Source: a virus (taxonomy: Duplodnaviria; Caudoviricetes). Taken from it: a stretch of 64,000 bases of DNA. Each line of letters begins with the position of its first letter. Position 1 is the first letter of the stretch. Below are positions 20,588-53,212 of the stretch, in pieces. The stretch lies in IMG/VR virus record IMGVR_UViG_3300005739_000025; one strand, given 5' to 3'. The notes below the pieces were generated by a model, which was not told the DNA's origin, made no database searches, and was given only the letters and a program-made list of their open reading frames with translations. The position numbers and the translations under genes are program-made.

Positions 20588-21169
20588 ATGGAACAAGATC
20601 CTATAACAGGGTTAAAATATAAATTTGTAAAACCTAGCGAGTTCAATTACGCTTATCATGTAGCTGGATCTTTATTTTATAAGATATCAAAAGCGCCAGG
20701 CAATAACACATTTGTTTCTTTTAATGAAGTGCACCCCTCTAGAGATAAAGAATTGCAAGATATATTAAGAAAAGATTTAGGTTACGGTATTCATACAAAA
20801 GGGTTTAATACAACTAATCTTGGAGCTCAAGAGATTAAATCATTGGAAAATTCTAAAGACTGGAACAACTATTATGTAAAGAGTACTCAAGATCTAATAG
20901 ATAAAGGTTTTTTATCTAAAACAAATTATAAAAACCATGGGTGGTCTATTGTGTATCCAGATACCATTCAGACTATTGCACCTTCTGCTCCACCTTGGGT
21001 TAAGGATAAATTAAACATTCTAAAACAAGCTAGTAAAACAAAAATTAATAGAAATATTCTTTCAATGTTTTTAGAGCGTTTATGCGAATTTATGATGCTT
21101 CATGAAGCATGGACTAATTTAAGACCTAAAACGAAAGAAGTGTTTAAAGACATTTTATCTGAGCTATGA
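20588..21169 (+). CDS. Tagged protein (C-terminal RPKTKEVFKDILSEL)
   Basis: C-terminal copy of the 24x motif. Confidence 0.7.
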   Translation: MEQDPITGLKYKFVKPSEFNYAYHVAGSLFYKISKAPGNNTFVSFNEVHPSRDKELQDILRKDLGYGIHTKGFNTTNLGAQEIKSLENSKDWNNYYVKSTQDLIDKGFLSKTNYKNHGWSIVYPDTIQTIAPSAPPWVKDKLNILKQASKTKINRNILSMFLERLCEFMMLHEAWTNLRPKTKEVFKDILSEL

Positions 21170-21579
21170 AACAGAAAGCGCCAAAGATGGAACTTATTCC
21201 AATTACGTCTGAGAACTACGAAAGAGTTTCTTGGCCAGCGCCTCATGGTACATCTTTTAAATTAACAAAAGATAAAAAATATGGAGTTACAAAGTTTACA
21301 GAGATGGGTCCTCTCGGTAAAGATTATATGCTAAAAAACGGGTACAGAAGAATATATTACTTTGATGGAGATGATGTATTAAAGTACTATGTCTATAATT
21401 CTATTCCCCTACCCCACCCCATTGATGCTAAAACAATGTATGAAATTGTTGATAAAAATACCGTTCCTAAAGCTTTAAGAAACGAAATTATGATTGCGTA
21501 TGTTATAGATAACTTAGGAAGACTTCTAAAGCCTAAAACTAGAGAGCATTTTGGGGATATTTTTAGCGAATTATCTTGA
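21166..21579 (+). CDS. Tagged protein (KPKTREHFGDIFSELS)
   Basis: C-terminal motif; ATGA coupling to upstream gene. Confidence 0.75.
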   Translation: MKQKAPKMELIPITSENYERVSWPAPHGTSFKLTKDKKYGVTKFTEMGPLGKDYMLKNGYRRIYYFDGDDVLKYYVYNSIPLPHPIDAKTMYEIVDKNTVPKALRNEIMIAYVIDNLGRLLKPKTREHFGDIFSELS

Positions 21580-22061
21580 CTAAATTCTGGGTTCCTTCAT
21601 AATAGGCACAATGAAAGATTACCTTTTATTGTTTATTGAATGTGTCTACCATCTTTTTAATGATAATAGACCCTTTAAAAAGAAAATTGAGCCATCATTA
21701 TTGGCAGAAAATATCTCATGGTTTAATAATTGTTCTTGGATCGAACAATTGATTGCATTTAAACAAATTTCCCGTTATTATACTTTTAAATGACATACGA
21801 AGAACAAATAGAACAGGTGCAAAGCGCTCTCAATTATCTCATTGCAGAGGGTATTGCTGTAGAAGATGGAAAAGGTCTCTATAGGCTTAAAACTGATAAA
21901 GAACTTAAACTAGAAATAGAGAGTCTTATTAATGAGTAATAAAGAAAAGATTATTAGAATTGGTACCTGGTTAACTATTTTTACTTTTTCTGTTGCCTTT
22001 TGGGTAGTTATAACTTATTATTCTTATCACTTTGTAAGAAATCTTATAATGTCTAACTAAT

Positions 22062-23634: not shown

Positions 23635-23691
23635 AATTTTAGTTGAGGTTCCTTAGAAAGACTATATATTAATAGAAGTTCTTTGACATTT

Positions 23692-26045: not shown

Positions 26046-26402
26046 ATGCGAAAAGAAGCCTTCGTTAAAAGATTAGAAAGCGGAAGACTAGTTTTTAGTT
26101 TTTACCCTCCTTTAAAAGACCTAGGAGGTAATCATTATTTTGATAAGCTTATCGTTGATTTAAACGATAAAAAGGTATATAAAGAGCTAGGAAAAACCAA
26201 AGTAGGTTATTTTTCTGAAGCTAGAGTTATAGAAGACGATGGAAGCGTGGGTAGATCTCTACTTCAAATAACTCATAGTACCCCATTTTCCTTTCAAGAG
26301 TTTGTAGATTTTCTACCTAAAGTTAAAGGTGAATATAAAGTTGTAGAGCTTAAACCTAAGACCGAAGAACACTTCGGAGATATATTGAGAGGACTATCGT
26401 AA
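26046..26402 (+). CDS. Tagged protein (KPKTEEHFGDILRGLS)
   Basis: C-terminal motif. Confidence 0.75.
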   Translation: MRKEAFVKRLESGRLVFSFYPPLKDLGGNHYFDKLIVDLNDKKVYKELGKTKVGYFSEARVIEDDGSVGRSLLQITHSTPFSFQEFVDFLPKVKGEYKVVELKPKTEEHFGDILRGLS

Positions 26403-26803
26403 TGAAACTTAAAGGAAAAGCATATTTTGTAAAAAAATTCTCAAATAATATATTTGGAAGCGATGAAGCTGATAGAATTATAAAATCTTCCAAAAATGTT
26501 AAAGGTAAAAGAAATATAGCACTCTATAAAGTATCTCCCCCCATTAAAGGACATCAATATGTTGTAGTTAGTAGTGTTAAAATAGAGATACCTATGAACA
26601 AAAAAGAAAGTCATATTATTCAAGAGACAATGGTATTTTTTTCTAATCATAAAGGGGATGTGGAATTTGGTCAAGAGTTTAAAACCTTTTACGGCTTCTT
26701 ACCCCATGATAAAGTGTTAATGGATATCGGCTATGAGCTTGTAGAGTTTAAGCTTAAACCAGAAACAGAAAAATATTTTGGAGACATTTTAAGAGAACTA
26801 TGA
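26402..26803 (+). CDS. Tagged protein (KPETEKYFGDILREL)
   Basis: C-terminal motif; stop/start overlap. Confidence 0.75.
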   Translation: MKLKGKAYFVKKFSNNIFGSDEADRIIKSSKNVKGKRNIALYKVSPPIKGHQYVVVSSVKIEIPMNKKESHIIQETMVFFSNHKGDVEFGQEFKTFYGFLPHDKVLMDIGYELVEFKLKPETEKYFGDILREL

Positions 26804-27222
26804 GTAAAAAATTAGAAGATGGTTATTTTTTAGACGATGGAAGAACGGGTATTGTTTATAAACCTATAAAATTAGGAGATTATGATGTATTTTTTAGTAA
26901 CGGTCTATTTTTTACTTTAGTAAAAGATGAAATAGTTACAGGTTACAAGTTTTACTCGTTAATGCACATAACCGCAAAAAAACATGGATTAAGTATAAAG
27001 TCTGTTCCAAAATGGCCCAAAGAAACGTTAATGTGGGGTCATGACTTTTTAAATAAGTTTGATCAAAATTTACCATATTTGTGTATAGTTAAACCTTGGA
27101 CGGTTCCGAGAAAATATTTTGATACAGGAGCTGCTCAATACTATAGTTTATACAAAAAGCCTTCTAAATTAATGAAACCTAAAACAAGAAAACATTTCGG
27201 AGACATAATAGATAATTTATGA
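26800..27222 (+). CDS. Tagged protein (KPKTRKHFGDIIDNL)
   Basis: C-terminal motif; ATGA coupling. Confidence 0.75.
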   Translation: MSKKLEDGYFLDDGRTGIVYKPIKLGDYDVFFSNGLFFTLVKDEIVTGYKFYSLMHITAKKHGLSIKSVPKWPKETLMWGHDFLNKFDQNLPYLCIVKPWTVPRKYFDTGAAQYYSLYKKPSKLMKPKTRKHFGDIIDNL

Positions 27223-27318: not shown

Positions 27319-27780
27319 ATGAAGACATTTAAGACATTTATAACCGAGAATGTGATACAAATGAGTGCTACTAGAGCTACTAAAGAGTATCCTTTTGTTT
27401 CTGAGCTAGACGATCAAAGTATAAAAGAGCTTTTATTAATTAGAAAGCCTGAAGACATTAAATCGGTATCTCTTGAAGCTATGTGGATGGATGATAGTGT
27501 AGAGTGTTACGGTATTATATTAAATGGAGTAGTTATGGGATTGTGGTGGTACGGACCTCATATTAAGGGATATCTACAAAAATTTAACGATAAACTAGAC
27601 GCTAAGAACAGAGCATTTCTACAAAAAGAAGTATTTGAAATTTTAGAAAATGAAAAACAGAGAATATACGATGAAGCAGGAGATGAAAGATTAGATAGAA
27701 TAGAAAAAGAAATAGAAATGCTTGATAAAATGAAACCTAAAACAAAAGAGTATTTCTATGACATAATGAAAGAACTATGA
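27319..27780 (+). CDS. Tagged protein with CTS-like leader (MKTFKTFITE ... KPKTKEYFYDIMKEL)
   Basis: Carries both N-terminal leader and C-terminal motif. Confidence 0.78.
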   Translation: MKTFKTFITENVIQMSATRATKEYPFVSELDDQSIKELLLIRKPEDIKSVSLEAMWMDDSVECYGIILNGVVMGLWWYGPHIKGYLQKFNDKLDAKNRAFLQKEVFEILENEKQRIYDEAGDERLDRIEKEIEMLDKMKPKTKEYFYDIMKEL

Positions 27781-28223
27781 CAAGAGGTAAAGCTATTTTA
27801 ATTAAAGATCTTACCCCTAGAAGTAAGGAAGATTTTCAAAGAGTGGTAAAAAGTGTTCCTAGATTTGATTATCTTTTTAGTAAGTTTGAGGGTCTTAATA
27901 TAGATCATATGGAGCTTAAAGTGTATAAGCTTAACCCAAAGCTATTTGTTGATAATGTTATTAAAGATTGTGAATATGTATTAATAGCTACAATATTCAT
28001 ATCAAAACATAATGAAAACAGATACAAGTATGAGTATAAAGAATCATCTGTTTATAAGAGTAATAAAAATGGAAAGATTTTAAACACCGATGAAATTTAT
28101 ATGACCCATAGAAACACTGATCATGAAGATGTGTTAAATGATATGGGAAGAGAGTGGTATGATCTAATAAAGCTTAAGCCTAAAACATCAGAACACTTTG
28201 GAGATATATTAATGAATATATGA
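27777..28223 (+). CDS. Tagged protein (KPKTSEHFGDILMNI)
   Basis: C-terminal motif; ATGA coupling. Confidence 0.75.
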   Translation: MTRGKAILIKDLTPRSKEDFQRVVKSVPRFDYLFSKFEGLNIDHMELKVYKLNPKLFVDNVIKDCEYVLIATIFISKHNENRYKYEYKESSVYKSNKNGKILNTDEIYMTHRNTDHEDVLNDMGREWYDLIKLKPKTSEHFGDILMNI

Positions 28224-28651
28224 ACAAATACTTTCAAGCTTTAAATAGGGGTTGGGACGTAGATGAAGATTCAGGGTTTAAATTTAAACATATAAATCCT
28301 TATGAATATGACATGATATATTTTCCATATATTCAAGGTTTTTATAAAATTATAAAGAATAAAAAATTTAAAATGTCTTTCGAGCCTCCTTGGTTTATAG
28401 CGCCTGTTAAGCTTTCTGAATCTTTATTAAATGATGCTAAAAAATGGGAAAAAGCTCATTTAATTCTTCTTAGAGAAATTAACCCAGATACGTTATGGGA
28501 GGATCTTTATATGATAGCTGATAAGTCAAGCACCCCCAACCATTTAAAATCTCAAATACTATCTGCTTCTTTACGTCCTAACTTTATAAAAAGAATGAAG
28601 CCAGAGACTCAAAAACATTTTAAAGATATTTTTATAGGATTAGAAGATTAG
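28220..28651 (+). CDS. Tagged protein (KPETQKHFKDIFIGLED)
   Basis: C-terminal motif; ATGA coupling. Confidence 0.75.
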   Translation: MNKYFQALNRGWDVDEDSGFKFKHINPYEYDMIYFPYIQGFYKIIKNKKFKMSFEPPWFIAPVKLSESLLNDAKKWEKAHLILLREINPDTLWEDLYMIADKSSTPNHLKSQILSASLRPNFIKRMKPETQKHFKDIFIGLED

Positions 28652-38364: not shown

Positions 38365-38405
38365 TATTTACATTTTTCGGCAACGACCCTACGGTTTATA
38401 TATAA
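38365..38405. repeat. 41-bp direct repeat, copy B
   Basis: tatttacatttttcggcaacgaccctacggtttatatataa; degenerate third copy at 39131-39163. Confidence 0.9.
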
Positions 38406-38468
38406 CGAAAAAATTTTTGCTCGATTTTTTTGTTACAAAACTAGCCATAAGGAACTTAGACCCGGGTA

Positions 38469-39125
38469 TTATGGTATAGCTTCGAATTTACCCTTTATAC
38501 CCAAACCACCACCGGATATTAAACTATTCTTCATATCTGGTGGTACTTCAGTATTAAGAAACTGCATTAATGAGGCAACACCAGCTGCCCCAGGTCCGGT
38601 TATTCTTGGAGGCCTCATTTTTATCTTCCCAGTCTCAAACGCTTTTTGTAATTTATTATATATTTGTTGAAACTTATTAAAATCTCTTTCAGTCTTAAAC
38701 CCCCAATCACCTGTTTTAGGATCTCTTACAATTCTCTGAATAGTCTTTATATCTGTTGATGGGGCGTCAGCAGGTAGTACTTTATAATTTCTATTAGCAA
38801 AAGAATCTTTACTAGAAGCTATGGCCTGTTCAGTAGGTTCTTTTTTAAATAACCACTTATACATTCTATAAGCTGGATCTTCCAACTTATCTCTATCAGC
38901 TCTCAATACATACCCCAATTTTTCACCAAGCTTCTTATCTCTAACGTTCATAGGAAAGTACTGACTTTTAGGTTCTGGTTTATCTACAAAATAGGAATCA
39001 CCACCATAACCAGTAGATCTTACCTTACCAGTTTTCAATATATTACGCACTTCTTCTGAGCCAGTAGAAACACGAGACCCTAAATTTTGTTCTAGTAATC
39101 TGTTTACTAGTCTATCAAAATTCAT
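38469..39125 (-). CDS. Probable head-packaged protein (MNFDRLVNRLLE leader)
   Basis: TAAATA 5 nt before ATG 39125; same leader as 38171-38359 (MNFDRTVKKLLE). Confidence 0.6.
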   Translation of the reverse strand: MNFDRLVNRLLEQNLGSRVSTGSEEVRNILKTGKVRSTGYGGDSYFVDKPEPKSQYFPMNVRDKKLGEKLGYVLRADRDKLEDPAYRMYKWLFKKEPTEQAIASSKDSFANRNYKVLPADAPSTDIKTIQRIVRDPKTGDWGFKTERDFNKFQQIYNKLQKAFETGKIKMRPPRITGPGAAGVASLMQFLNTEVPPDMKNSLISGGGLGIKGKFEAIP

Positions 39126-39161
39126 ATTATTATTTACTATTTGCGGCATAGAACCTTCGGT

Positions 39162-42745: not shown

Positions 42746-42949
42746 GTGAAAGTAAATGACTCGTCTTTCTATAAAGAGTTCTTAGCAATGAAAGAAGAGA
42801 TTTTAAAACACAAATGGTACGAGTCTGAAAGAGTAGGCTATGATATAGGATTTTCTAGAGCGTTAATTGACTGGACTATAAAATTTAAATCTACCTTTTT
42901 AAAACAAAGAAAGAAAAAAATTAAATCGTATATTTCATACCCAAATTAG
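42746..42949 (+). CDS. DUF4032-like small protein
   Basis: YKEFLAMKEEILKHKWYESERVGYDIGFSRALIDW; TAAATA upstream of GTG 42746. Confidence 0.65.
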   Translation: MKVNDSSFYKEFLAMKEEILKHKWYESERVGYDIGFSRALIDWTIKFKSTFLKQRKKKIKSYISYPN

Positions 42950-43292
42950 AGGGTTGAGTTTGAGGAGCTGTAGGAGCGACTCTACCTGTAGGGGCTGTTA
43001 ATTTAGCTAGTAACACTGTTATATTTTCTATAGCTTTCATCATATTGTTTAGTTTTTGATCTAATGAGTTTATCTGATTAGTGAGATTTTGTAAGTTCGG
43101 TGCACCACCTGTTGATGTGCTTTGAGTATTGCTCATAGCTGTGGGAGCGCTAAAACTATTAGCATTTGGTGTAGATGACGTAGGAACTGTAGGCTGAAAA
43201 CTGTTTGGATTCAAAGCCATAGGAGGAGTTGCCTCTTTAACTAAACTTTTAGTATAGTTTTCAAAAATATTATTGAAATCTTCTTTTTTCAT
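42921..43292 (-). CDS. Probable head-packaged low-complexity protein
   Basis: FNNIFENYTKSLVKE leader; P/S/T linker and short coiled coil. Confidence 0.55.
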   Translation of the reverse strand: MKKEDFNNIFENYTKSLVKEATPPMALNPNSFQPTVPTSSTPNANSFSAPTAMSNTQSTSTGGAPNLQNLTNQINSLDQKLNNMMKAIENITVLLAKLTAPTGRVAPTAPQTQPSNLGMKYTI

Positions 43293-43570
43293 TACCAGTT
43301 TTTACAAGAAAAATATTTTGCAGTTCCAGGCTTTGCTGATGAACATTTGTGACGCGCTCTAAAAGATTTGCGACGTTTTGGATTTGATTTTTTAATTCTT
43401 CTTTTTGGATCACCATAATGTACGCGTTTTAACTTACCACCAACTCGAGCACATCTCATATATTTTTTATCTGTTCTCGTTGATGATTGCTGACCGGTAA
43501 CTTTAGTACATCTGCTACCTTTTTTTGCTTCTTCTAAAATTTGATTAACTAAATTATCGAAATTAAGCAC
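43292..43570 (-). CDS. Basic Cys-containing virion-type protein
   Basis: NFDNLVNQILEE leader; HYGDP...RRKSFRARHKC...YFSCKNW, recalled as widespread in large phages. Confidence 0.65.
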   Translation of the reverse strand: MLNFDNLVNQILEEAKKGSRCTKVTGQQSSTRTDKKYMRCARVGGKLKRVHYGDPKRRIKKSNPKRRKSFRARHKCSSAKPGTAKYFSCKNW

Positions 43571-43789
43571 TTCTATATTCCCCTTCGATATCATGAGCTA
43601 TTTGCATTAACCTATCACCATCCCCTCTTCTTGCTTTCATAGAAGATATTCTAGTAGCTATAGCTGCAATTTCAGAAGCTAAATTGATCATTTTATTTTT
43701 ATGCTCTGGCGGTTCACCAATATCAGATTCATAAACTTTTGAATACGCCTCAGAAATATTATATAACTCATTCTTCTTCATAAATGTAT

Positions 43790-44743
43790 TTATAAAGAAC
43801 CTATAATGTCTCCGAAATGTTCTTTTGTTTTAGGCTTCATATTTTTAGTGCTCAGTATCTTTAATCTTTCTTTTTGTGACATTAAAGCAATTTTTAAAAC
43901 CTCAAATGCATCTTTATCAACATCTAATGTATTATTTGTCAAACCATCATACAACTCATACCCACCTATATATGTTAAAGATTTACCCCCTTGTTTATGT
44001 TTTTTTAATGGAATAAGATCCGTATCCCAACGTTTAGTTTTTTTATCTAATATTTTTCTCTTTAATTCTAATCCTAAAAACATAGGTGTTTTTTCATCTA
44101 CAGAATAAGAAAAGTGCTGTAATATTTCATAAAACTTTACACCTTTAGAAGTATTATACCTCACCGTTATTTCATCAATTATTTTGTTATATCTATAACC
44201 AGGATTCTTTGAATATATTCTATTAAAGTCTATAATTTCGGGCTCATTTGTTTGCCTTGACTCTGAAACCGCGCCTAATATATCACCAAAGTGTTTTTTA
44301 GTCTCCGGCTTCATACCCATTGCCTCAATACTCCTCTTTTTCATATCAAAATTACTAACTTGATCTAAAATTTCTTCAATTATTCTAAAACCTTTTTTAT
44401 TTTTAAAATATGGATGCTTATGAATAGCGTGAGCCGCTACTAAATTCATTGGCAGCTCTTTCATTAAATTACGATCTATTGAATGAAGGATCATACCTTC
44501 TTCGCTATTATATCTGCAGTGAAAAATTGCAGTAGATTGTAATATACCAGGCTTATCTTCCTTCAATTTTTCAAAAATCTGAAAAACATTAAACCTTTCT
44601 TTTGTAATAGTATCTTCAAACCTAAAAAAATCGTTTATAAAATGATTAGAAATATCTCTTCTAAATTCTATAAGCTCTACATTTACAGGCTCTGATTTGC
44701 CTCTACTATACGCCTCAAATATTAACTTAGATGTAATATCCAC
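43790..44743 (-). CDS. Two-module tagged polyprotein with leader
   Basis: MDITSKLIFEAY leader; KPETKKHFGDILGAVSES and terminal KPKTKEHFGDIIGSL. Confidence 0.8.
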   Translation of the reverse strand: MDITSKLIFEAYSRGKSEPVNVELIEFRRDISNHFINDFFRFEDTITKERFNVFQIFEKLKEDKPGILQSTAIFHCRYNSEEGMILHSIDRNLMKELPMNLVAAHAIHKHPYFKNKKGFRIIEEILDQVSNFDMKKRSIEAMGMKPETKKHFGDILGAVSESRQTNEPEIIDFNRIYSKNPGYRYNKIIDEITVRYNTSKGVKFYEILQHFSYSVDEKTPMFLGLELKRKILDKKTKRWDTDLIPLKKHKQGGKSLTYIGGYELYDGLTNNTLDVDKDAFEVLKIALMSQKERLKILSTKNMKPKTKEHFGDIIGSL

Positions 44744-44755: not shown

Positions 44756-45298
44756 TTATAAAGAAGATAATATGTCACCAAAATGCTTTTGTGTTTCTGG
44801 CTTCATGTTTCTTAATCTTAAGTAGTTGTTTAGATTTTTTAACTCATCTTTAGAATAAACACCCTCGGTCACCGATAAATCTTCATAATCATTTAATACA
44901 TCTGCCATTACGTGCTTTATAAGATTTTTCATATCATCTAACATAGGTCCATGTTTATGTCTGCTTTTAGCATTATGAACAAGCTCTAATACAAAATAGT
45001 AAACATATCTAGGAAAATTTAATTTATCTGTTAAACCATACTTACTACGTAAATTTATTAAAATATTTTTTCTATGCATTCTAAACGGTCCAAGCTCAAA
45101 TAACCCTCTTACTAAAAACGGTAACAAAGGTATACCAACAATATTATTAAACATATCATAGAGTTTATTCTCTAGCCACGATTGTCCTCCTAATTCCCTC
45201 AATTGCCACAAAGTTTCAGTATTTTTCTTTATAGCAATATTAAAAAGAAAAGCAGCAACTTTATCAGCGTATTCGTTCTCGCTCGGTGTTAATGTCAT
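44756..45298 (-). CDS. Tagged protein (KPETQKHFGDILSSL)
   Basis: C-terminal motif. Confidence 0.75.
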   Translation of the reverse strand: MTLTPSENEYADKVAAFLFNIAIKKNTETLWQLRELGGQSWLENKLYDMFNNIVGIPLLPFLVRGLFELGPFRMHRKNILINLRSKYGLTDKLNFPRYVYYFVLELVHNAKSRHKHGPMLDDMKNLIKHVMADVLNDYEDLSVTEGVYSKDELKNLNNYLRLRNMKPETQKHFGDILSSL

Positions 45299-46389
45299 AA
45301 CTCTCTTAAAATATCTCCAAAATGTTCTTTTGTTTTCTTTTTCATTCTAGTATCTGAAAAATAATTAGAATCCATAAGGTTTAATAGCAATGCATTTTTT
45401 AAAAACACCTCTGCTATCTTGTAGTTAGTATCATAGGAGTGAGGAAAATAACAATAATATATGTACGATGTATTAACGTGGGATTTTCTATCTTGCATTA
45501 ATATTTCTAAATATTTTTTAGCATTTGGACCAGCGTTATATGATGTTACACCTGTATCCAATAAACCATTTACCTCATTTACATCTATTTCTGGATTATT
45601 ATACACACAATCATATAAAACATGTTTTTCTATGTAAGGTTGTAAAAACTTAGTGAGTATAAAATCATCCGGATCTTCACTTACATATATATTTTCTTTT
45701 ATTACCAAATATGGCATTATATTAAGTTTTACTAGTGAATATAGTTCGTGCTGATTTCTAATTTTAGAGAGCGCAGTGCCTCTATATTTGTAACCTGTTA
45801 AATCATTGGCTAAATTAGCTACTATTTCGCAAATTCTTTTTTCAAAGTCTACCAACTTTAAACTTTTTATCTTACCTGCAGATGTATGTTGATAGCTTTC
45901 TAAAATGCTTTTATATTGTTCATTAAACCCCAAACCTTTTATGATATCACCAAAATGTTTTTTTGTCTCAGGTTTAAACGCTAGTCCTTCTTTTTTATAC
46001 GCCAGCAACCAATTTGCTTTTTTTTCTACCTCCGACATGTAGGTTCCTTGTCTATAAAAATCAGGTACTTTCTTTTGCATTTTATCAAAGTCTTTATCAT
46101 CTCTATCTGTAAAAACATAACCTTTAAAAAGAGTGCTATCTGCTTTTAATGCAACAATAATTTGAGAATGGTTTGCAAAATCTAACTTAGTTCTTTTTCT
46201 ACTATTTTTTGTATTGACAAATACAAATGCAAATCTTTCAAAATTATTATTCTCTAAATAATTTATAATCTTTTGTAGGTTATCTTTGTTATAGTTTATA
46301 AAAAGATTGCTATTAATTCCTGGAAACGCTTTTCTTACTATATTTCCATTATAAATCTTACCAACCTTTAATTGATTAAAAACTTTCAT
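45295..46389 (-). CDS. Two-module tagged polyprotein
   Basis: KPETKKHFGDIIKGLGFNE...ILES and terminal KKKTKEHFGDILREL. Confidence 0.8.
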   Translation of the reverse strand: MKVFNQLKVGKIYNGNIVRKAFPGINSNLFINYNKDNLQKIINYLENNNFERFAFVFVNTKNSRKRTKLDFANHSQIIVALKADSTLFKGYVFTDRDDKDFDKMQKKVPDFYRQGTYMSEVEKKANWLLAYKKEGLAFKPETKKHFGDIIKGLGFNEQYKSILESYQHTSAGKIKSLKLVDFEKRICEIVANLANDLTGYKYRGTALSKIRNQHELYSLVKLNIMPYLVIKENIYVSEDPDDFILTKFLQPYIEKHVLYDCVYNNPEIDVNEVNGLLDTGVTSYNAGPNAKKYLEILMQDRKSHVNTSYIYYCYFPHSYDTNYKIAEVFLKNALLLNLMDSNYFSDTRMKKKTKEHFGDILREL

Positions 46390-46988
46390 TTATCTAACGC
46401 TCCAAATATATCTCCAAAATGTTTTTTAGTCTCAGGTTTTAAACTTTTATTGAATACGTATTTTTCCCAATAGCTATGTCCCTCTTCAGCGTATTTTTTA
46501 GCTAGTGCATGAAACATAATAGCTAATACTCTAAATCCCTTATCATATAATTCACCATCTTCTAATTCTTCAAATAAACGTTTAAACTCTATTCGCCTCC
46601 CAGCACCTCCAACATACTTTAATAAAGATTTATTAAGAATTTTTTCTATCTTGTCTTTATCTTCATCTTTTAATATACTTTCGCGGGGCTGCATTAAATC
46701 GTAAAAAAACCATCCAATATGCTTTTGCGTCCTTTCATCCACATTAGGATCAAACTTAAATAACCTTCTAAAATTTGCTGTATTCTGATCTTCTATATCA
46801 GTATTATAATACATGTTTGATTTTGCTCTTTGTCTTTCAGTTTTAAATCTATTAGATTTTGGTAGAGCTTTATACTGATTTCTTTTTCTTAACAACATGT
46901 TTATAGTGTAAGTAAGAAGCTTATGTTCTTCTGGAGTTACATCTACCAGTATTTCCTCTAAGAAAAGAATATACTTTTTGAAGTTCAT
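46386..46988 (-). CDS. Tagged protein with leader (MNFKKYILFLEE ... KPETKKHFGDIFGALDK)
   Basis: Both motifs; TAAATA 6 nt upstream. Confidence 0.78.
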   Translation of the reverse strand: MNFKKYILFLEEILVDVTPEEHKLLTYTINMLLRKRNQYKALPKSNRFKTERQRAKSNMYYNTDIEDQNTANFRRLFKFDPNVDERTQKHIGWFFYDLMQPRESILKDEDKDKIEKILNKSLLKYVGGAGRRIEFKRLFEELEDGELYDKGFRVLAIMFHALAKKYAEEGHSYWEKYVFNKSLKPETKKHFGDIFGALDK

Positions 46989-47000
46989 CTAAATTATTTA

Positions 47001-47678
47001 TTAACTGTTGATACCTGCGAGTATATCCCCGAAATGCTTTTGAGTCTCTGGCTTCATAGTTCTTTTAATTCTATATTTTTTTAACGATTTATAAAAACTA
47101 TTTTGGCTCATAACTTCTACCCAACCATCTCTATCATAAAGAGCAATACTTCCAATAAAAGCGTACATACCAGTTCTAATTATTTCTTTAATTTTTTCTA
47201 TATCATTATATACACCTTTAAAGTTCTCTCTTCCCCACCCATCTAATCCCCCAATCATCATAGTGATTGATACTGAGTATTCACTTTTTTTCCAAATAGT
47301 ATTCGCTTTTTTCTTGTCAAATAATCTATCTATTAATGCTTTTACGGAAGGTTCTTTATCTAATTCTAAAAAAGTACCTCCAACATAGTCCCAGTCATCA
47401 TCTCTTCTTGGTTTATGATCTATTAAATTACATAAAAATTTGTATATATTTTTTATAATGTAATCTTCATCCGGATAGTAGATCGCTTCATCAGTAGCAA
47501 TACCACCAGGCCTATTAAAAGGTTGTTTTGCTAATTTAAAATAATATTTTTGTAAAAATTGTGAAATAAGAGTTATGCAATCTTCTTCTCTTTGTGTTAA
47601 AGGTATTGGCCTGTACCCGTCTACCTCTGGAAAACGTGTACCTTCGATTATCGTTCGAACTTGCTCGTAAAAGTCCAT
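47001..47678 (-). CDS. Tagged protein with leader (MDFYEQVRTIIE ... KPETQKHFGDILAGINS)
   Basis: Both motifs; start moved to 47678. Confidence 0.75.
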   Translation of the reverse strand: MDFYEQVRTIIEGTRFPEVDGYRPIPLTQREEDCITLISQFLQKYYFKLAKQPFNRPGGIATDEAIYYPDEDYIIKNIYKFLCNLIDHKPRRDDDWDYVGGTFLELDKEPSVKALIDRLFDKKKANTIWKKSEYSVSITMMIGGLDGWGRENFKGVYNDIEKIKEIIRTGMYAFIGSIALYDRDGWVEVMSQNSFYKSLKKYRIKRTMKPETQKHFGDILAGINS

Positions 47679-47926
47679 CTCATTATCTTGCAGATGGTAT
47701 CCAGCTTGCATCCTCAGGATTTTCTGGAAGTTTTAATGTTTTAGCCTGACCTTGATCAGATCTATAACCCTCAATTAAGTCTAAAACTTTTTTTAAACCT
47801 TCAGCTATTTGATCTAAAACATCACCTTTTACTGCCTCTGCATCTTCATCTGGCATTTGTTCTTGTTGAGAACATTGAGATTCTACTACAGTTTTGTATG
47901 CTTTATATATGCTGCTATTATTCATA

Positions 47927-48412
47927 TTATCTTGTTAATAAGTTTCTTAAGTTATACATTATAGACCAAACAGATGGTCTACTGATTACTCTTTTTATTT
48001 CCTCTAAAAGAGAACGGTCTTTAATGTGAGTTGTTGCGTAACTTTTTATAAACTCTTTTAGTTGATTAATATCTATATTTTTATATCTATCTAATCCAAA
48101 GTTCTCTAAACCTAAAAAGAAAGCGTCTTCTACTTCGTCAATTAAATCTTTTATATAAGGAAGATTCGATTGGAACATAAAGTATTTTGATTTTCTTTCT
48201 ACAGGTTTTTGAACTAGCTTTGTATTTTCTACATTACTATTTTCTGCAAAGTTTTCCAAAAGTTTATTAAACTCTGAATAGTTTCTTTCAACACCCAAAA
48301 GTTTTTTATACTTTGAATTCTCTAAAATTTGTCTTTGTTTTTCAGTTAACTTATGTTTACCGTAGTAATATTTTTCAGCTAACAATTTTAATTTTTTGTC
48401 TCTTGAGTTCAT
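47927..48412 (-). CDS. Probable head-packaged protein
   Basis: MNSRDKKLKLLAEKY leader; internal ILE and LLE sites. Confidence 0.5.
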   Translation of the reverse strand: MNSRDKKLKLLAEKYYYGKHKLTEKQRQILENSKYKKLLGVERNYSEFNKLLENFAENSNVENTKLVQKPVERKSKYFMFQSNLPYIKDLIDEVEDAFFLGLENFGLDRYKNIDINQLKEFIKSYATTHIKDRSLLEEIKRVISRPSVWSIMYNLRNLLTR

Positions 48413-48413: not shown

Positions 48414-50009
48414 TTATTTTGTTGCGCAGCCTCCACCTGCAATAATTTTTTTAATTCTTGGAAGAACTTCTTCTAAGAATTCTTTTTTGACCGCTGGATC
48501 AAACTCTTCATAAACTACAAAGTCTAACATGAATGTTAGAAGATCTCTAGGCATATCTTTATTTAAAGTCTCAAACATAACACAAACTGCTTCTGGAGAT
48601 AAATTGTTCATTATTTTAGCTAAACCTATCATTACCTCTCTATCATCAGGTGATATTTTATCCCCAGCCCCTTTAGCATTTTGTGATGCAATTCTAAGTT
48701 TGTTTGCTACAAACACAATTAAAGCTAACATTTTATCTAAGGGTTGATCTTTAAGATACTTTTTAGGATCTTTTAAAATCTTACCCATATCAAAAGATTG
48801 AATGTGTTTTAAGAAAGTATCAAATCTATTTGCCCACGGTACACCAGCGCGCTGAGCAGCAAATAATCTAATGTTTTCCATCGCGTTAAATGATCTACCA
48901 GATGCTTTTTGTTCATCATACTTCTTTCTGAAATATTCTATACCCTTAGAAATCTTTTCTAACACTCTAGGAGTCACAAATGGATTTTCGCCGTTCGGTT
49001 CTTTGTATAGGGCGTCTTCAGGTACAGCTTTTGTGAACGCTACAATAGCATCATCTATACCGGCATTAACAGCATAGTCTCTCCATTCATCTGGATTTAC
49101 TACAAGAACACCAGCTCCAAAGCGGTTAATGTTAGCAGGAGAAATTGGCTCGTTTCCAAAAAGTTCACCCATGTTACATGCAGCTACTATTCCGACGTCT
49201 TTGGCAATTCTCCTGTCACCCAAAACTCTATCAAGTACAATTTTAAACGCAGCGTCTTTTACTTCTTTAGATCCTTGATTGAATTCATCCAAAAATAAAA
49301 ATCCATCTGCACCTTCTCTTGTTAAAAGATAAGCCCATGAAGGTGGACTATAAACTGTGTAAGGTTTATCAGATTTTACAGGTACACCCACGACGTCTGA
49401 TCTATCCATTTCTGCTAATCTTAAATCCACATAAACAAAATAGGAAGTGGGATCTTGAATAAGAGCATCTCTTTCTTCATCACTTAGATCAAAAAATTCT
49501 ACATATTCTTTGTTCTTTTCATTAGCAATTCTTTTTGATACTTGTTTAAAAATACTACTCTTACCCACACCTGGATCACCAATTAATAGGAAAGACTCTT
49601 TCATATCATAAGCAGCTTCTGCTTGTTCTTCTACTTGTCTTATAGACATTTCTGGAAATTCTGTCTCTTTCCAGCTTATAAGATCTGAATCACCGAATCT
49701 AGGAATATCTACTATTGATGTTGGATCTTGTTTTATTTGAGAAGCAACCTGCGCTTCTTTGTTAGCAGCTGAAATTAATGGCTGCGCTTGTTTTACAATA
49801 TCATCGGAGCTTATTTCAGGTTCTTGAGCTTGTTGAGCTATTTCACCAGCCTGACCTTTTAGTTGGGAAGCTTTTTGCTGAACACTTTTAGGGTTAACTT
49901 GTTTACCCTTAACCATTTGCATTGGTTTTGAAAAAGGAACCTCACCACCTACCGCTTCATTTAAAACTTTTTTGTATAGATTGAATATATTCTTGGAATT
50001 AGAGTCCAT
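48414..50009 (-). CDS. MoxR-like AAA+ ATPase with N-terminal leader
   Basis: GDPGVGKS, VDLRLAEMDRSDVVG, LFLDEFN, AACN, NRF, TPR; leader MDSNSKNIFNLYKKVLNE. Confidence 0.8.
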   Translation of the reverse strand: MDSNSKNIFNLYKKVLNEAVGGEVPFSKPMQMVKGKQVNPKSVQQKASQLKGQAGEIAQQAQEPEISSDDIVKQAQPLISAANKEAQVASQIKQDPTSIVDIPRFGDSDLISWKETEFPEMSIRQVEEQAEAAYDMKESFLLIGDPGVGKSSIFKQVSKRIANEKNKEYVEFFDLSDEERDALIQDPTSYFVYVDLRLAEMDRSDVVGVPVKSDKPYTVYSPPSWAYLLTREGADGFLFLDEFNQGSKEVKDAAFKIVLDRVLGDRRIAKDVGIVAACNMGELFGNEPISPANINRFGAGVLVVNPDEWRDYAVNAGIDDAIVAFTKAVPEDALYKEPNGENPFVTPRVLEKISKGIEYFRKKYDEQKASGRSFNAMENIRLFAAQRAGVPWANRFDTFLKHIQSFDMGKILKDPKKYLKDQPLDKMLALIVFVANKLRIASQNAKGAGDKISPDDREVMIGLAKIMNNLSPEAVCVMFETLNKDMPRDLLTFMLDFVVYEEFDPAVKKEFLEEVLPRIKKIIAGGGCATK

Positions 50010-50017
50010 AAAGTTAT

Positions 50018-51523
50018 TTATGAGTGAGATACGTCAATAAAATAGGTAGGACCGAATTTTTTAAGAATCTCGTCTGTACCATCCATTGTGATAAAAAATA
50101 ATTTTTTAGGGGCTTGGGGTAGAATAGGATTATCCTCTACATATCCGTCAGTAAAAACTAATAAACCGCCTTTAATTGGTTTACCTTGATAATACTTGTC
50201 TAAAAATTGTTTTACGCTTGAAAGAGTTGTTCCACCCCCATGAGCTTTCATATTCATTAAACCTTCAGTTATCTTTGACATACTCATTTTAGATGTATCT
50301 ATTTCAAAATGATCAGCAACAGTAGCGTCCCAAAGTAATACTAAAATCTTTACCTTATTATTTCTAAAAACTTTTAAAATATCTATAATTCCGCCTAAAA
50401 AAGTTTTTAATACAGGGTCTGTTATAGACCCACTAGTGTCGATAGCTACTACAGCTTGCAATTCATTTTTAACAGTATACCTTCTTGGGTGAAAGTAAGT
50501 TCCACCACCCAATCTTCTACTCTCTCTTGACCAATCTGTTTTAACTACAGACGAACCAACTATAAAATTCTTTAACAATTGTTTCCAATTAACTTTGGCA
50601 CTTAGTAGTCTTTTATCAAAAGATCTAGGCATACCCGGGTCAGTGCCTCTTCTTTTTGCTTCATCTTGCGCTTGTTGTGCTGCCTCTTGAACTTTACTCT
50701 TTAGTGCGTTATCTCTTTGCTGATCCGACATACCAGATGTATCGTTTTTTTGGTAAACCGGATCATTAGAAGGTACTTTTTCACCCTTTATTTGTTCAGC
50801 CTCTTGAGGTGTTAAATGTTTGTCCAGCTCACCCATCTGGTCTATTACTTGTTGAATACACTGTTTGACCTGTTCAGGGGGACCACTTTTAATTAATATA
50901 TCATATAATTGTTCTGCGTCCATGTCAGTTATATCGACCTTTTTCATTTGAATTCCGGTAACATTTAAAGAAGGAGATTTGCCTTTAGTGTTTATTTTTG
51001 CTTTTGATGCATCTGGTATCTCAATTATCCATCTACCATTTTTATTTTGAGGTATAAGACCCATCTTAGGTAAGGAAATACCCATATCTACTAAATCTCT
51101 ATTCATTATGTAATCGGTAGCATAATTCCAAATCGTCATATCTCTTCCTCTTTGTCTTGTGAACGTCAAAGTTGCTATATGCATTACTTCGTGAGCTAAA
51201 ACACCCATTACTTCATCATCAGATAACTCGTTTAAAACGAAATTTGCGTTAATATAAATGTTTGCAGAGTTATCCACAGCCATAGTGTTAATCCCGTAAC
51301 GAGCTGCTTCTTCTGGTTTTATAACAACAGTTTTAAGCTTTTGAAGAGTTAAACCAAAAAAAGGATAAACTTTATATAATCTAAACTTGGCTCTTACAAG
51401 TTTATCTTCAAAAGTCTTAAATACCTTAGGGTCCATAGGAGCTTGATCTGTTGGACCTGCTTGTTCTAGTAGTATTCTTCTATAAGATTTAAATATAGAA
51501 TCTCCATCAAAGTTATAGCGCAT
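50018..51523 (-). CDS. VWA-like domain protein with N-terminal putative metallopeptidase (DUF2201 type)
   Basis: TMAVD, LAHEVMH, WNYATDYIMN, AIDTSGS (MIDAS), GGGT, VFTDG; start set at MRYNFDGDSIFKSY. Confidence 0.8.
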   Translation of the reverse strand: MRYNFDGDSIFKSYRRILLEQAGPTDQAPMDPKVFKTFEDKLVRAKFRLYKVYPFFGLTLQKLKTVVIKPEEAARYGINTMAVDNSANIYINANFVLNELSDDEVMGVLAHEVMHIATLTFTRQRGRDMTIWNYATDYIMNRDLVDMGISLPKMGLIPQNKNGRWIIEIPDASKAKINTKGKSPSLNVTGIQMKKVDITDMDAEQLYDILIKSGPPEQVKQCIQQVIDQMGELDKHLTPQEAEQIKGEKVPSNDPVYQKNDTSGMSDQQRDNALKSKVQEAAQQAQDEAKRRGTDPGMPRSFDKRLLSAKVNWKQLLKNFIVGSSVVKTDWSRESRRLGGGTYFHPRRYTVKNELQAVVAIDTSGSITDPVLKTFLGGIIDILKVFRNNKVKILVLLWDATVADHFEIDTSKMSMSKITEGLMNMKAHGGGTTLSSVKQFLDKYYQGKPIKGGLLVFTDGYVEDNPILPQAPKKLFFITMDGTDEILKKFGPTYFIDVSHS

Positions 51524-51550
51524 AAGTAAACCATAAGTATTTAGATATTC

Positions 51551-53212
51551 ATGCATAGTTTTAAAGATTTTATTAAATTGTATGAAGCGACTTTGCAAGA
51601 GCTTAGAAGTAAAGGCTTTGTAGAGCCGGGCCCTAGAGCTAGACATCAAATAGGTGACTATGTTATTATTAAGTCTGACGGTCGTTGGCCAATGTATCAA
51701 TCGGCTAGATCTTCACCATATATAGGACAATATGGTAAAGTGGTAGGCTATAAACAGGCAACAGGTTCGTATGTTAAATATGCCGTAGAGTTTCCAGATA
51801 AAAACGTTGAAGCGTTTCATAGTCATTACGTTGCAGGCTCATTTAAAGATGAAACTTCTGCAAAAAAATATGCCTTAGATCCAAAAAAGAAAAGAAATCC
51901 TACGGGTATTAATTTCAATCCGAAAATTAAACCTGAAGACTTAAAGGGTTATGTAGACGGTGTAAATAGATTAGTTGCTAATGCTAAATTTGAAGAACTA
52001 TTAAATAAAATATTTTCACAACAACCTTTTGAACTTAACAGATTAGAAAAACCTATATCCTTTAATAGTGATGACGGTAAGTATGTAGCAACTATTTTGA
52101 TGTCTAGACCCTTAAAGGGTATGTTAAAGCCAGGTAATAAAATAAGATCCTACGACAGTGTTAATTTAAGAATAACTAGCAATAGCTTTAGAAAATATAT
52201 AAGCGAAAATATTTGTATATATAGACTTAATAATACAGTAAATGGTAAACTGGTAAATGAAACCGGGGCAACTAGACTCTTTAATGTGACGTATAGTCAT
52301 AGTCCTTACAATGTAGTCAAGCCACACTTAAAGTTAGAACACTTACTTTACGAAGATAGAACAATTGATTTTACAGATAAAAATACCCTACTTAAATCAA
52401 TTTATAATAGCGGTCTAGGCACACTTTCAACTAAGGTTTTTAATTTGTACCCTAATGCTACAAAAGATAATCAAATATTTGAAGAAAATTACTCTAAACC
52501 TTTTATAGAAACTATGAACTTTTTAAATGGTAATTTTTCCTTAGAAGAAATTTTTAACAGCTTATATCAAGTAACAGAGAGGGGTGGGAAAAAATTTATT
52601 GGTGTACATAGAGTAAATGCAAACGCTGATACTTTAAGATTTTTCTTAAACTATGAATTCGACCCCACTAAAAAGCGTTCCGGTAGAGATCAAACATTAG
52701 TTATAATTGAAGATAATCCAAACAGAATAAAACAGATACCCCTGGGCATGCCTAAAGTAGTGATTCAACCTAAAGATGCATATTACAGAAAAATCTATCC
52801 AAAATTATTAAATCTTAACATGATTCCTGATACAGTTAAGGATCTTACATTATATAATCTCGAAATTAAATCCCTACAAGGTCTTCCAGAACAAATGGAT
52901 GCCTTACACATAGACCACAGCTTTATGGAATCTTTAAAAGGTCTTACAACTAAAGTTATAAAAGGTGAATTTAGAGTAAGAACAGATTTAAAGACTCTTC
53001 AAGGCGGTGAACACACAGTCTGTGGTAAGCTGGATATATATGATAATAGAAGCTTAAAATCTTTAAAAGGAATTCCCAAAGCTAAAGAATATACACTACC
53101 AAATCAATTTACGGTTAAAGACGCGCAAAAAGAAGTTCAACAAAGAGAGTTTATAGGAAATTTAAAGCCAAAAACTAAAGAGACATTTGCAGATATTTTT
53201 GGTTCTTTATAA
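51551..53212 (+). CDS. Large tagged protein with leader, KOW/SH3-like N-domain and LRR-like C-domain
   Basis: MHSFKDFIKLYE; IGDYVII...GQYGKVVG; repeated xSLxGLP units; terminal KPKTKETFADIFGSL. Confidence 0.7.
   Translation: MHSFKDFIKLYEATLQELRSKGFVEPGPRARHQIGDYVIIKSDGRWPMYQSARSSPYIGQYGKVVGYKQATGSYVKYAVEFPDKNVEAFHSHYVAGSFKDETSAKKYALDPKKKRNPTGINFNPKIKPEDLKGYVDGVNRLVANAKFEELLNKIFSQQPFELNRLEKPISFNSDDGKYVATILMSRPLKGMLKPGNKIRSYDSVNLRITSNSFRKYISENICIYRLNNTVNGKLVNETGATRLFNVTYSHSPYNVVKPHLKLEHLLYEDRTIDFTDKNTLLKSIYNSGLGTLSTKVFNLYPNATKDNQIFEENYSKPFIETMNFLNGNFSLEEIFNSLYQVTERGGKKFIGVHRVNANADTLRFFLNYEFDPTKKRSGRDQTLVIIEDNPNRIKQIPLGMPKVVIQPKDAYYRKIYPKLLNLNMIPDTVKDLTLYNLEIKSLQGLPEQMDALHIDHSFMESLKGLTTKVIKGEFRVRTDLKTLQGGEHTVCGKLDIYDNRSLKSLKGIPKAKEYTLPNQFTVKDAQKEVQQREFIGNLKPKTKETFADIFGSL

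What the first reader, a model, noticed from the sequence alone, without database searches (positions are those of the whole stretch)
20588..53212. A ~16-aa C-terminal tag on 17 largely unrelated proteins (24 copies): candidate new sorting/delivery system
Seen: the motif [KR]P[KEQ][TS]xx[HYV]F[GKE]DI[LFIM]xx[LI] ends 15 ORFs (20588, 21166, 26046, 26402, 26800, 27319, 27777, 28220, 36467, 43790, 44756, 45295, 46386, 47001, 51551) and occurs 9 more times internally (4x in 39162, 3x in 40756, 1x in 43790, 1x in 45295). The upstream 110-540 aa are mostly dissimilar. Codons in the motif vary synonymously (aagcctaaaactagagagcattttggggat vs aaaccagaaacagaaaaatattttggagac), so the peptide is conserved, not a DNA repeat. 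F, I, L, L fall at i, i+3, i+4, i+7, an amphipathic docking helix preceded by a basic KP cap. Tagged genes sit in translationally coupled operons on both strands. Inference: the tag is a zip code recognised by one machine (head packaging, ejection through the tail, docking on a phage or host complex, or timed degradation). I do not recognise it from any described family.
Basis: partly seen in the sequence, partly recalled or inferred. Interest (0 to 1): 0.92.

Follow-up and report, generated by a model that had tools for sequence, protein, structure and literature searches.

The report
Shared C-terminal tag on phage cargo
A large uncultured freshwater T4-like phage puts the same 15-residue C-terminal peptide on about 19 unrelated small proteins, some strung into polyproteins with T4-type head-protease sites after each copy, which points to an undescribed address label on proteins packed into the phage head.

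Summary
There are 24 copies of Φ-[KR]-P-[KE]-T-x-x-H-F-G-D-I-Φ-x-x-L (one degenerate) in 17 ORFs: 15 within 0-2 residues of the stop and 9 internal. Half of the identical residues use different codons, so selection acts on the peptide. The bodies fall into about 19 unrelated families here and about 28 in the lineage. AlphaFold2 models show the tag as a low-confidence helix appended to confident, different folds, so it is not the end of a shared domain.

New here: all 58 internal tags in the lineage are followed by Φ-x-E (chance 18%, P about 3e-43), the T4 gp21 prohead-protease motif. Orthologues switch between fused and separate genes exactly at these junctions. Many of the same proteins start with T4-type capsid-targeting leaders (MKTFKTFITE versus T4 ipI MKTFKEF, ipII/III MKTYQEFIAE).

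Best reading (0.5): these are head-internal cargo proteins cut into 14-26 kDa units that each keep the tag as a docking peptide. The receptor is unknown. An adjacent MoxR/VWA-HExxH pair is a rival.

The tag is confined to one freshwater phage lineage (55 clusters in 1.84 billion proteins). It is absent from Pfam, IMG/VR and the literature searched. First-stage notes on overlapping windows of this genome had already flagged the tag, the L-x-E sites and the leaders.

The parts
20588..21169 (+). Tagged ORF, 193 aa, no leader, orphan body; tag at 21122-21166
   Evidence: only hit is itself; TAAATA 11 nt before the ATG
21166..21579 (+). Tagged ORF, 137 aa, no leader; tag at 21529-21573
26046..26402 (+). 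Tagged ORF, 118 aa, no leader; tag at 26352-26396
26402..26803 (+). Tagged ORF, 133 aa; tag at 26756-26800; body related to ORF 27777
26800..27222 (+). Tagged ORF, 140 aa; tag at 27175-27219
27319..27780 (+). Tagged ORF, 153 aa, with T4-like class A leader MKTFKTFITE|N; tag at 27733-27777
27777..28223 (+). Tagged ORF, 148 aa; tag at 28176-28220
28220..28651 (+). Tagged ORF, 143 aa; tag at 28598-28642
36467..36907 (-). Tagged ORF, 146 aa; tag at 36476-36520; TAAATA 13 nt before the ATG
39162..40754 (-). Four-module polyprotein, 530 aa, leader MNRKRDLYSIAE|S. Tags at 40344-40388, 39981-40025, 39600-39644 and 39213-39257, followed by LDE|S, LQE|S, LKE|G and LGE|S
   Evidence: module 3 modelled
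40756..41949 (-). Polyprotein, 397 aa, leader MGFYKTISNLLE|N. Degenerate tag at 41839-41883 (LNE|S), tags at 41359-41403 (LNE|S) and 40933-40977, then a basic Cys-containing 58-aa tail
43790..44743 (-). Two-module protein, 317 aa, class B leader MDITSKLIFE|A. Internal tag at 44267-44311 (VSE|S), terminal tag at 43793-43837
44756..45298 (-). Tagged ORF, 180 aa, no leader; tag at 44759-44803. Fused behind another module in relative P0028
45295..46389 (-). Two-module protein, 364 aa. Internal tag at 45931-45975 (then GFNE|Q), terminal tag at 45298-45342
46386..46988 (-). Tagged ORF, 200 aa, leader MNFKKYILFLEE; tag at 46395-46439. Fused to the ORF 47001 orthologue in relatives
47001..47711 (-). 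Tagged ORF, probable start at MDFYEQVRTIIE|G (47678); tag at 47010-47054
51551..53212 (+). Largest tagged protein, 553 aa, leader MHSFKDFIKLYE|A, weak LRR-like hints; tag at 53165-53209
50018..51556 (-). DUF2201_N putative metallopeptidase (HEVMH) plus VWA (MIDAS DTSGS) protein with a class B-like leader; heads the minus-strand array
   Evidence: conserved synteny
48414..50009 (-). MoxR-type AAA+ ATPase with leader MDSNSKNIFNLY..LNE; TAAATA 11 nt before the ATG
47683..48412 (-). Two conserved untagged ORFs (161 and 80 aa) between MoxR and the first tagged gene
42921..43781 (-). Three untagged small ORFs (72, 100 and 123 aa) inside the array, each with a leader-like N-terminus
37465..39149 (-). 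Untagged leader-bearing ORFs at the end of the array (127 aa T4_Y16D-like, 119 aa, 62 aa, 226 aa) with class C leaders M.FD..VN.LLE

Best explanation
The tagged proteins are an expanded arsenal of head-internal (probably ejected) cargo proteins of a roughly 244-kb freshwater T4-like phage.

Shown: the tag is an appended, portable amphipathic helix with a basic K-P-x-T cap. It sits on about 28 unrelated bodies and is under peptide-level selection. Every internal copy is followed by a Φ-x-E site. Orthologues exist either as separate genes ending at the tag or as fusions joined tag-Φ-x-E-S. About half of the tagged proteins, and many untagged neighbours, start with leaders like the T4 internal-protein capsid-targeting sequence, and these also end in Φ-x-E.

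Inferred: a gp21-type prohead protease removes the leaders and cuts the polyproteins inside the prohead, so that each 14-26 kDa, mostly basic unit ends in the tag. The tag then docks each unit onto one common partner in the head (core, protease, shell interior or packaged DNA). In this reading it acts as a C-terminal targeting and retention signal, and it presents the adjacent cleavage site. The receptor itself is not identified.
For: 24 copies at the stated places. 50% synonymous codon differences at identical residues. About 28 unrelated body families.

AF2: in the fused orthologue, tag 1 with its junction (212-229) and tag 2 (389-401) have pLDDT below 50, between confident bodies. In the repeated module, the body has pLDDT above 90 and the tag helix 58-60.

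Junctions: 45 of 58 internal tags have E exactly five residues after the core (P=4e-39). All 58 have Φ-x-E within 8 residues, against 18% by chance (P=3e-43). P1' is mostly S, N or A. Natural C-termini cluster at the same position.

Fusion and fission at the junction: ORF 47001 and ORF 46386 are one 400-aa protein in relatives, joined by tag-LNES or tag-LAES. Boundaries differ in L003/L004. Modules are shuffled in P0028, P0029 and P0046.

T4 comparison: gp21 cuts after L/I-X-E and capsid-targeting leaders are 10-20 residues (PMC9026906, PMC5694885). The T4 record gives ipII/III MKTYQEFIAE|A and ipI MKTFKEF, against MKTFKTFITE|N and MKTFKQFLLE|I here. The leader pattern occurs at 29 of 102 N-termini against 8% of internal windows (P=2e-9). 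T4 ip genes flank the tRNA cluster, as the tagged cluster does here (tRNAs at 11.9-16.9 kb).

Modules are 13.6-26.5 kDa, and 15 of 23 have pI of 8.5 or more. TAAATA lies at a fixed 11-13 nt before the ATG of 25 genes, including a tail-fibre-like gene and five tagged genes.
Against: No head gene, gp21 homologue or virion proteome was available: the rest of the genome is not held, so the protease is assumed from T4-likeness. Seven of the eight plus-strand tagged ORFs, plus ORFs 44756 and 45295, have no leader, and most of them have no TAAATA motif, so their presence in the head rests on the tag alone. If a leader suffices for entry, a second entry signal is redundant. The fact that every module keeps its own tag fits a post-cleavage role (retention, ejection or a host target) at least as well as an entry role. 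The tag HMM finds nothing significant in T4. A metallopeptidase/AAA+ pair heads the operon and could be the true processing machine.
Confidence: 0.5

Rival explanations
1. The tag acts after injection. The leaders and the protease load and separate the units, and the tag then addresses every unit to one host hub or site (a host complex, the membrane or the incoming DNA), or orders their exit through the tail.
For: Every module of a polyprotein keeps its own tag even though one leader should be enough for entry. Terminal tags with no cleavage site are conserved as strongly as internal ones. Leaderless tagged ORFs could be made and act in the cell without being packaged.
Against: No similarity to any known hub-binding motif was found (Pfam). 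The host is unknown, so nothing could be tested. The central Asp and flanking charges make a membrane-targeting helix unlikely; this is my own inference.
Confidence: 0.2
2. The tag is the handle for the co-operonic MoxR AAA+ / VWA-HExxH pair. The VWA MIDAS site binds the invariant Asp, and the zincin domain (or ATPase-driven remodelling) processes or matures the tagged proteins.
For: The gene order VWA(DUF2201_N, HEVMH, DTSGS) - MoxR - 161 aa - 79 aa - tagged genes is conserved in three lineage members. MoxR/VWA pairs generally act on specific protein substrates (general knowledge, not tested here). Both proteins carry leaders, so they could travel with the cargo.
Against: The synteny comes from one lineage only. 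MoxR/DUF2201 pairs occur in many phages that lack the tag (605 phage records). The same Φ-x-E motif ends the N-terminal leaders, which fits the Glu-specific gp21 family. The plus-strand tagged cluster lies more than 20 kb away. The co-fold gave no verdict and so counts neither way.
Confidence: 0.12
3. The tag is only an extended substrate-recognition element for the prohead protease. Terminal copies are leftovers of polyprotein fission and have no function of their own.
For: The core F-G-x-Φ-Φ-x(0-3)-E is very rare in T4 (4 hits in 83,926 ORF residues). Two of the three hits in real genes are in the main gp21 substrates, gp22 (ETFGTVFE|A) and gp23 (AFGSFLTE|A, the maturation site). A short-tag sub-clade reads HFGSIVE|S in the same register.
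Against: Terminal tags lack the Glu yet are nearly invariant between orthologues whose bodies have diverged to about 60% identity. Orphan single-module ORFs keep the tag. The T4 pattern was noticed post hoc, and the full tag HMM does not score gp22 or gp23.
Confidence: 0.08
4. The tag is a C-terminal degron or timing signal read by a host or phage protease.
For: It is at the C-terminus, exposed and flexible.
Against: The last residues vary (SEL, GLS, DNL, LED, LDK, INS), and the conserved part lies 4-15 residues from the end. Internal copies are conserved too. Nothing links the tag to a degradation system.
Confidence: 0.05
5. The motif is the last helix of one shared fold, so all the ORFs are divergent paralogues.
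For: One real paralogous module family exists (clusters 0/9/22; hhalign probability 92%).
Against: All other cluster pairs score below 30% hhalign probability. The modelled bodies are all-alpha in one case and a four-stranded alpha/beta domain in the other. The tag is the low-confidence appendage in both.
Confidence: 0.02

Closest known systems
T4 internal proteins (IPI, IPII, IPIII, Alt) with the N-terminal capsid-targeting sequence, processed by gp21
   Same: Both are diverse, small, mostly basic proteins that share only a short signal. Both sets of genes lie beside the tRNA cluster. Both have leaders of the MKT[FY].. type ending in L/I-x-E, and cleavage after Glu.
   Different: The shared signal studied here is C-terminal, 15 residues long, is retained rather than removed, and is unrelated in sequence to the T4 leader. 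The cargo is arranged as multi-module polyproteins, with 24 units in one window. Nine tagged proteins have no leader at all.
Encapsulin cargo targeting peptides
   Same: A short C-terminal peptide on otherwise unrelated cargo directs it to the interior of an HK97-fold shell (PMC7925596).
   Different: There is no sequence relationship to the tag. Encapsulins are cellular compartments with no protease processing or polyproteins. Binding of this tag to a capsid protein is untested.
Processed ejection and inner-body proteins of giant phages (phiKZ, SPN3US)
   Same: Dozens of head-internal proteins, including paralogue families, are cut after Glu at a three-residue motif by a gp21-related protease (PMC5694885).
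   Different: Those phages use long N-terminal propeptides and A/S/G-x-E sites. No common C-terminal tag or tag-delimited polyprotein has been described there.
MoxR AAA+ / VWA substrate systems
   Same: An AAA+ ATPase and a VWA-MIDAS protein are encoded in one operon with candidate substrates that carry an invariant acidic residue.
   Different: No binding has been shown (one search gave no verdict). Such pairs are common in phages that lack the tag.

Membership tests
T4-type internal (capsid-targeted) proteins | N-terminal 10-20 residue leader resembling MKTYQEFIAE or MKTFKEF and ending in L/I-x-E | tested here: inconclusive
   Present on ORFs 27319, 39162, 40756, 43790, 46386, 47001 and 51551, and arguably 36467. 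Absent from ORFs 20588, 21166, 26046, 26402, 26800, 27777, 28220, 44756 and 45295.
T4-type internal (capsid-targeted) proteins | The genome encodes a gp21-family (S77) prohead protease and T4-type head core genes | not testable with these tools
   The whole genome is not held, and the relative's 237-kb contig cannot be searched. An unchecked first-stage note places gp23 about 114 kb beyond the window.
T4-type internal (capsid-targeted) proteins | Found in the virion in processed form | not testable with these tools
   The phage is uncultured and known only from metagenomes. No proteome is available.
T4-type internal (capsid-targeted) proteins | Small, diverse, mostly basic proteins encoded near the tRNA cluster | tested here: met
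   Units are 13.6-26.5 kDa and 15 of 23 have pI of 8.5 or more. tRNAs lie at 11.9-16.9 kb and the tagged cluster starts at 20.6 kb. The T4 ip genes flank the T4 tRNA cluster.
gp21-type cleavage site | Hydrophobic residue (L/I) at P3 and Glu at P1, in an exposed segment | tested here: met
   All 58 internal tags are followed by Φ-x-E, 45 of them in one fixed register. The junction has low pLDDT in the model. Actual cleavage has not been shown.
Encapsulin-type C-terminal cargo targeting peptide | Short C-terminal peptide shared by unrelated cargo | tested here: met
Encapsulin-type C-terminal cargo targeting peptide | The peptide binds the inner face of the HK97-fold shell protein | not testable with these tools
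   The capsid protein of this lineage could not be obtained.
MoxR/VWA substrate | Physical recognition of the tag by the VWA or peptidase protein | tested here: inconclusive
   Complex prediction gave no verdict. Only conserved synteny supports this.
Any Pfam, PHROG or PDB family for the tag or the bodies | Significant profile or fold match | tested here: not met
   No Pfam hit above threshold for any of the 17 proteins. No Foldseek match with E of 0.001 or better in the PDB for either model or in AFDB for the repeated-module model.

The most novel reading that the evidence does not exclude
The tag is a second, C-terminal cargo code of a tailed virus, orthogonal to the N-terminal T4 capsid-targeting sequence. 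It docks each protease-released unit to a defined site in the head, or orders its exit through the tail. This would make it a viral counterpart of encapsulin targeting peptides, and it would let one phage load and deliver dozens of unrelated effectors as tag-delimited polyproteins.
Probability: 0.3. Interest if true: 0.85.

Novelty: new variant of a known kind. Interest (0 to 1): 0.74.

Why it matters
T4's short N-terminal leader is the textbook way to load arbitrary proteins into a phage head, and it is already used for protein delivery. A distinct C-terminal signal that is retained, combined with self-separating polyproteins, would be a new principle for how large phages organise and deliver many effector proteins at once. 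It would also mark about 28 unknown protein families as probable injected host-takeover or anti-defence factors. If it proves portable, it would give a second, orthogonal handle for packaging cargo into capsids. Finally, it offers a concrete test of what gp21-type proteases recognise beyond L/I-x-E.

Tried and rejected
1. blastn of 7.9 kb against 50,697 phage records found no match.

2. A degenerate DNA pattern for K-P-x-T-x-x-H-F-G-D-I in IMG/VR gave 2 hits. Both are chance: about 51% GC, single copy and wrong context. The lineage is therefore absent from IMG/VR.

3. Pfam on all 17 tagged proteins and 8 untagged neighbours gave nothing above threshold.

I therefore could not obtain the gp21, gp22 or gp23 of this lineage.

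5. Complex prediction of the VWA/HExxH protein (with Zn and Mg) against a 44-residue tag-plus-junction segment gave no verdict. It is evidence neither for nor against binding.

6. Foldseek of both models against the PDB, and of the module model against AFDB clusters, gave no convincing fold match. ESM-Atlas look-alikes gave only weak LRR-like hints for ORF 51551 and nothing for ORF 44756.

7. The tag HMM against all six frames of T4 scored at best 5.8 bits, in an unrelated frame. Homology of the tag to any T4 sequence is not supported. Only the minimal F-G-x-Φ-Φ-x-E core recurs in gp22 and gp23, and that was noticed post hoc.

8. The full T4 late-promoter octamer TATAAATA is not enriched in the window: 8 found against 15 expected. 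The shorter TAAATA at a fixed distance is enriched.

9. The shared-fold reading was rejected.

10. The DNA-repeat reading was rejected: the tags are 65% identical at nucleotide level with half of the identical residues encoded synonymously.

11. Sliding-clamp, SSB-tail and ssrA-type motifs were considered from memory. I saw no convincing match and could not test them.
Full report
OBSERVATION. Fifteen end an ORF within 0-2 residues of the stop codon. Nine are internal: four in ORF 39162-40754, three in 40756-41949 (one degenerate), one in 43790-44743 and one in 45295-46389. The aligned consensus is Φ-[KR]-P-[KE]-T-x-[KE]-H-F-G-D-I-Φ-x-x-L. F is invariant, and P, T, D and I are at least 90% conserved. 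Each conserved residue is encoded by two to four codons, and 50% of identical residue pairs use different codons, so selection acts on the peptide and not on a DNA repeat.

ARE THE BODIES UNRELATED? I cut all proteins at their tags and compared the bodies. BLASTP gives no pair below E=0.01 within the window. I then added the 66 lineage proteins and the ORFs of two related contigs. phmmer single-linkage clustering gives 31 clusters. hhalign merges only clusters 0, 9 and perhaps 22, and every other pair has a probability below 30%. The merged group is a genuine paralogous module of about 110 residues, and it builds the polyproteins (alignment A3). The window therefore holds 24 units from about 19 families.

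- In a fused two-module orthologue (P0003), the leader (1-23), tag 1 with its junction (212-229) and tag 2 (389-401) are the segments with pLDDT below 50. Two helical bodies lie between them.
- In the repeated module, the alpha/beta body has pLDDT above 90 and the tag helix (112-124) has 58-60.
The tag is thus an appended helix on different folds and not the end of a common domain. Neither model has a convincing match in the PDB, and the module model has none in AFDB.

DISTRIBUTION. A profile of the 24 copies, searched against 1.84 billion representative proteins, finds 55 clusters, nearly all with the match at the exact C-terminus or repeated internally. They come from ENA, JGI and Logan metagenome assemblies, including a 237-kb contig. 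The window's own contig is 244 kb, and the runs that hold it are freshwater metagenomes. IMG/VR, the phage collection, Pfam and the searchable literature hold nothing comparable.

JUNCTIONS. Across the lineage, 45 of 58 internal tags carry Glu exactly five residues after the core (x-x-L-x-E). A short-tag sub-clade carries it directly after the core (I-Φ-E), and the apparent exceptions read F-N-E or V-K-E two residues later. All 58 have Φ-x-E within eight residues, against 18% for random windows (P about 3e-43). The next residue is S in 33 cases, otherwise mostly N, A or K. Natural C-termini cluster at the same place.

The orthologues of ORF 47001 and ORF 46386 are separate genes here and in two relatives, but in at least eight others they form one protein of about 400 residues, joined by tag-L-N/A-E-S. 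The relatives L003 and L004 break the array at different junctions. Modules recombine between polyproteins in P0028, P0029 and P0046. Terminal tags do not need the Glu, so the Glu belongs to the junction and not to the tag. This is the expected signature of a cleavage site. T4 gp21 cuts after L/I-X-E (PMC9026906), and the giant-phage relatives of gp21 also cut after Glu (PMC5694885).

LEADERS. Many proteins in and around the arrays begin with conserved amphipathic leaders that also end in Φ-x-E:
- Class A reads MKTFKTFITE, MKTFKQFLLE, MVTFKSFLKE or MHSFKDFIKLYE.
- Class B reads MD..SKLIFE.Y.
- Class C reads M.FD..VN.LLE.
The T4 record itself gives MKTYQEFIAE|A for ipII and ipIII and MKTFKEF...ITE|A for ipI. 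In T4, residues 4 and 7 of this leader carry the targeting function and residues 8 and 10 the processing function (PMC9026906). Class A matches at all four positions. The leader pattern occurs at 29 of 102 N-termini against 8% of internal windows (P=2e-9). About half of the tagged proteins have a leader. So do MoxR, the VWA protein and several untagged array members.

T4's ip genes flank its tRNA cluster. Here the nine tRNAs lie at 11.9-16.9 kb and the first tagged cluster starts at 20.6 kb. The units are 13.6-26.5 kDa (one is 63.5 kDa) and mostly basic. TAAATA sits 11-13 nt before the ATG of 25 genes, where about 0.2 would be expected. These genes include a tail-fibre-like gene and five tagged genes, and the motif is associated with leaders (odds ratio 3.3, P=0.02).

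MECHANISM. Shown: a portable C-terminal peptide on unrelated bodies, Φ-x-E junctions, fusion and fission at those junctions, and T4-type leaders. Inferred: a gp21-family protease removes the leaders and separates the modules in the prohead, so that each unit ends in the tag.

What the tag itself does is the open step. One leader should bring in a whole polyprotein, yet every module keeps its own tag, and terminal tags are conserved without a cleavage site. The tag therefore most likely acts on each released unit. I favour docking to a common head component, giving targeting of leaderless units, retention and site presentation. A role in ejection or at a host target is a serious rival.

One lead concerns T4. 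The minimal core F-G-x-Φ-Φ-x(0-3)-E occurs only four times in all T4 ORFs of 60 residues or more. Two of the three hits in real genes are the scaffold gp22 (ETFGTVFE|A) and the gp23 maturation site (AFGSFLTE|A). I noticed this post hoc, and the full tag profile does not score them.

THE MoxR/VWA RIVAL. The minus-strand array is headed by a DUF2201_N/VWA protein with an intact HEVMH motif and a MIDAS DTSGS motif, followed by a MoxR ATPase. This order is conserved in L003 and L005. The pair could be the processing or remodelling machine. The only co-fold allowed gave no verdict. Such pairs are widespread in phages without the tag.

LIMITS. No head genes of this lineage could be read. No expression or proteome data exist. 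T4-likeness rests on the leaders, a T4_Y16D-like domain, tail-fibre similarity, homologues in T4-like Aeromonas phages and unchecked first-stage notes.

VERDICT. This is a new variant of a known kind: virion cargo signals and protease-processed internal proteins. First-stage notes on overlapping windows of this same genome had already flagged the tag, the L-x-E sites and the leaders, and I checked each of these here.

Noticed in passing
window-wide, e.g. 50015-50020(-), 46994-46999(-), 43787-43792(-), 20578-20583(+): TAAATA lies at a fixed 11-13 nt (motif start to ATG) before 25 of 102 genes, where about 0.2 would be expected. That leaves only 5-7 nt between the motif and the start codon. It looks like a T4-type late promoter giving leaderless or near-leaderless mRNAs, or a translation signal.
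   Followed up: partly
51551-51556: The palindrome ATGCAT appears to serve as the start codon plus His codon for both divergent genes. ORF 51551 (+) begins MHSF... and the VWA/HExxH gene (-) begins MHEY..., so their starts overlap by 6 nt.
   Followed up: no
40756-40932(-) and 43292-43594(-): The 58-residue tail after the last tag of ORF 40756 and the 100-aa ORF 43292 are both extremely basic, contain Cys and end alike (..YLNYHC and ..YFSCKNW). In relative P0035 the same tail follows a tag-LNE|R junction. They may be protamine-like DNA-binding peptides released by cleavage.
   Followed up: no
37465-37848(-): This untagged 127-aa ORF has a class C leader and belongs to a domain that scores weakly as Pfam T4_Y16D in relatives. 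There it is fused in front of a tagged body (P0059) or after the last tag (P0044).
   Followed up: partly
48414-51556(-): Both the MoxR ATPase and the VWA/HExxH protein carry class B-like leaders (MDSNSKNIFNLY..LNE and ..DSIFKSYRRILLE), which suggests that an AAA+/peptidase pair is itself packaged into the head.
   Followed up: partly
L008/L012 (T4 NC_000866: gp22 at about 104222, gp23 at about 105119): In T4, F-G-x-Φ-Φ-x(0-3)-E occurs only in gp22, gp23, uvsW and one spurious antisense ORF. The gp23 copy is the known maturation site. This may be an unrecognised extended gp21 determinant.
   Followed up: partly
27219-27330(+): A short ORF beginning MSDKVEEIKEAISKLTIEEV... overlaps the start of tagged ORF 27319 in another frame. 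It is acidic and helical, and its function is unknown.
   Followed up: no
8227-10198(+), 11461-11883(-), 53207-54232(-), 57730-60939(+): Further untagged ORFs carry clear class A or class B leaders (MVFNYKKLFE, MIPFKKFL, MHRDSKFIFESY, MINFKKFLNVVEE, MVTFKSFLKE, MKTFKQFLLE, MDRDSKLIFENY). The leader-bearing cargo set is much larger than the tagged set.
   Followed up: partly
6723-7859(-): This 378-aa protein has a C-terminal region matching T4-type long-tail-fibre and baseplate-wedge PHROGs (E down to 2e-33). It lies between metabolic genes and the tRNA array.
   Followed up: no
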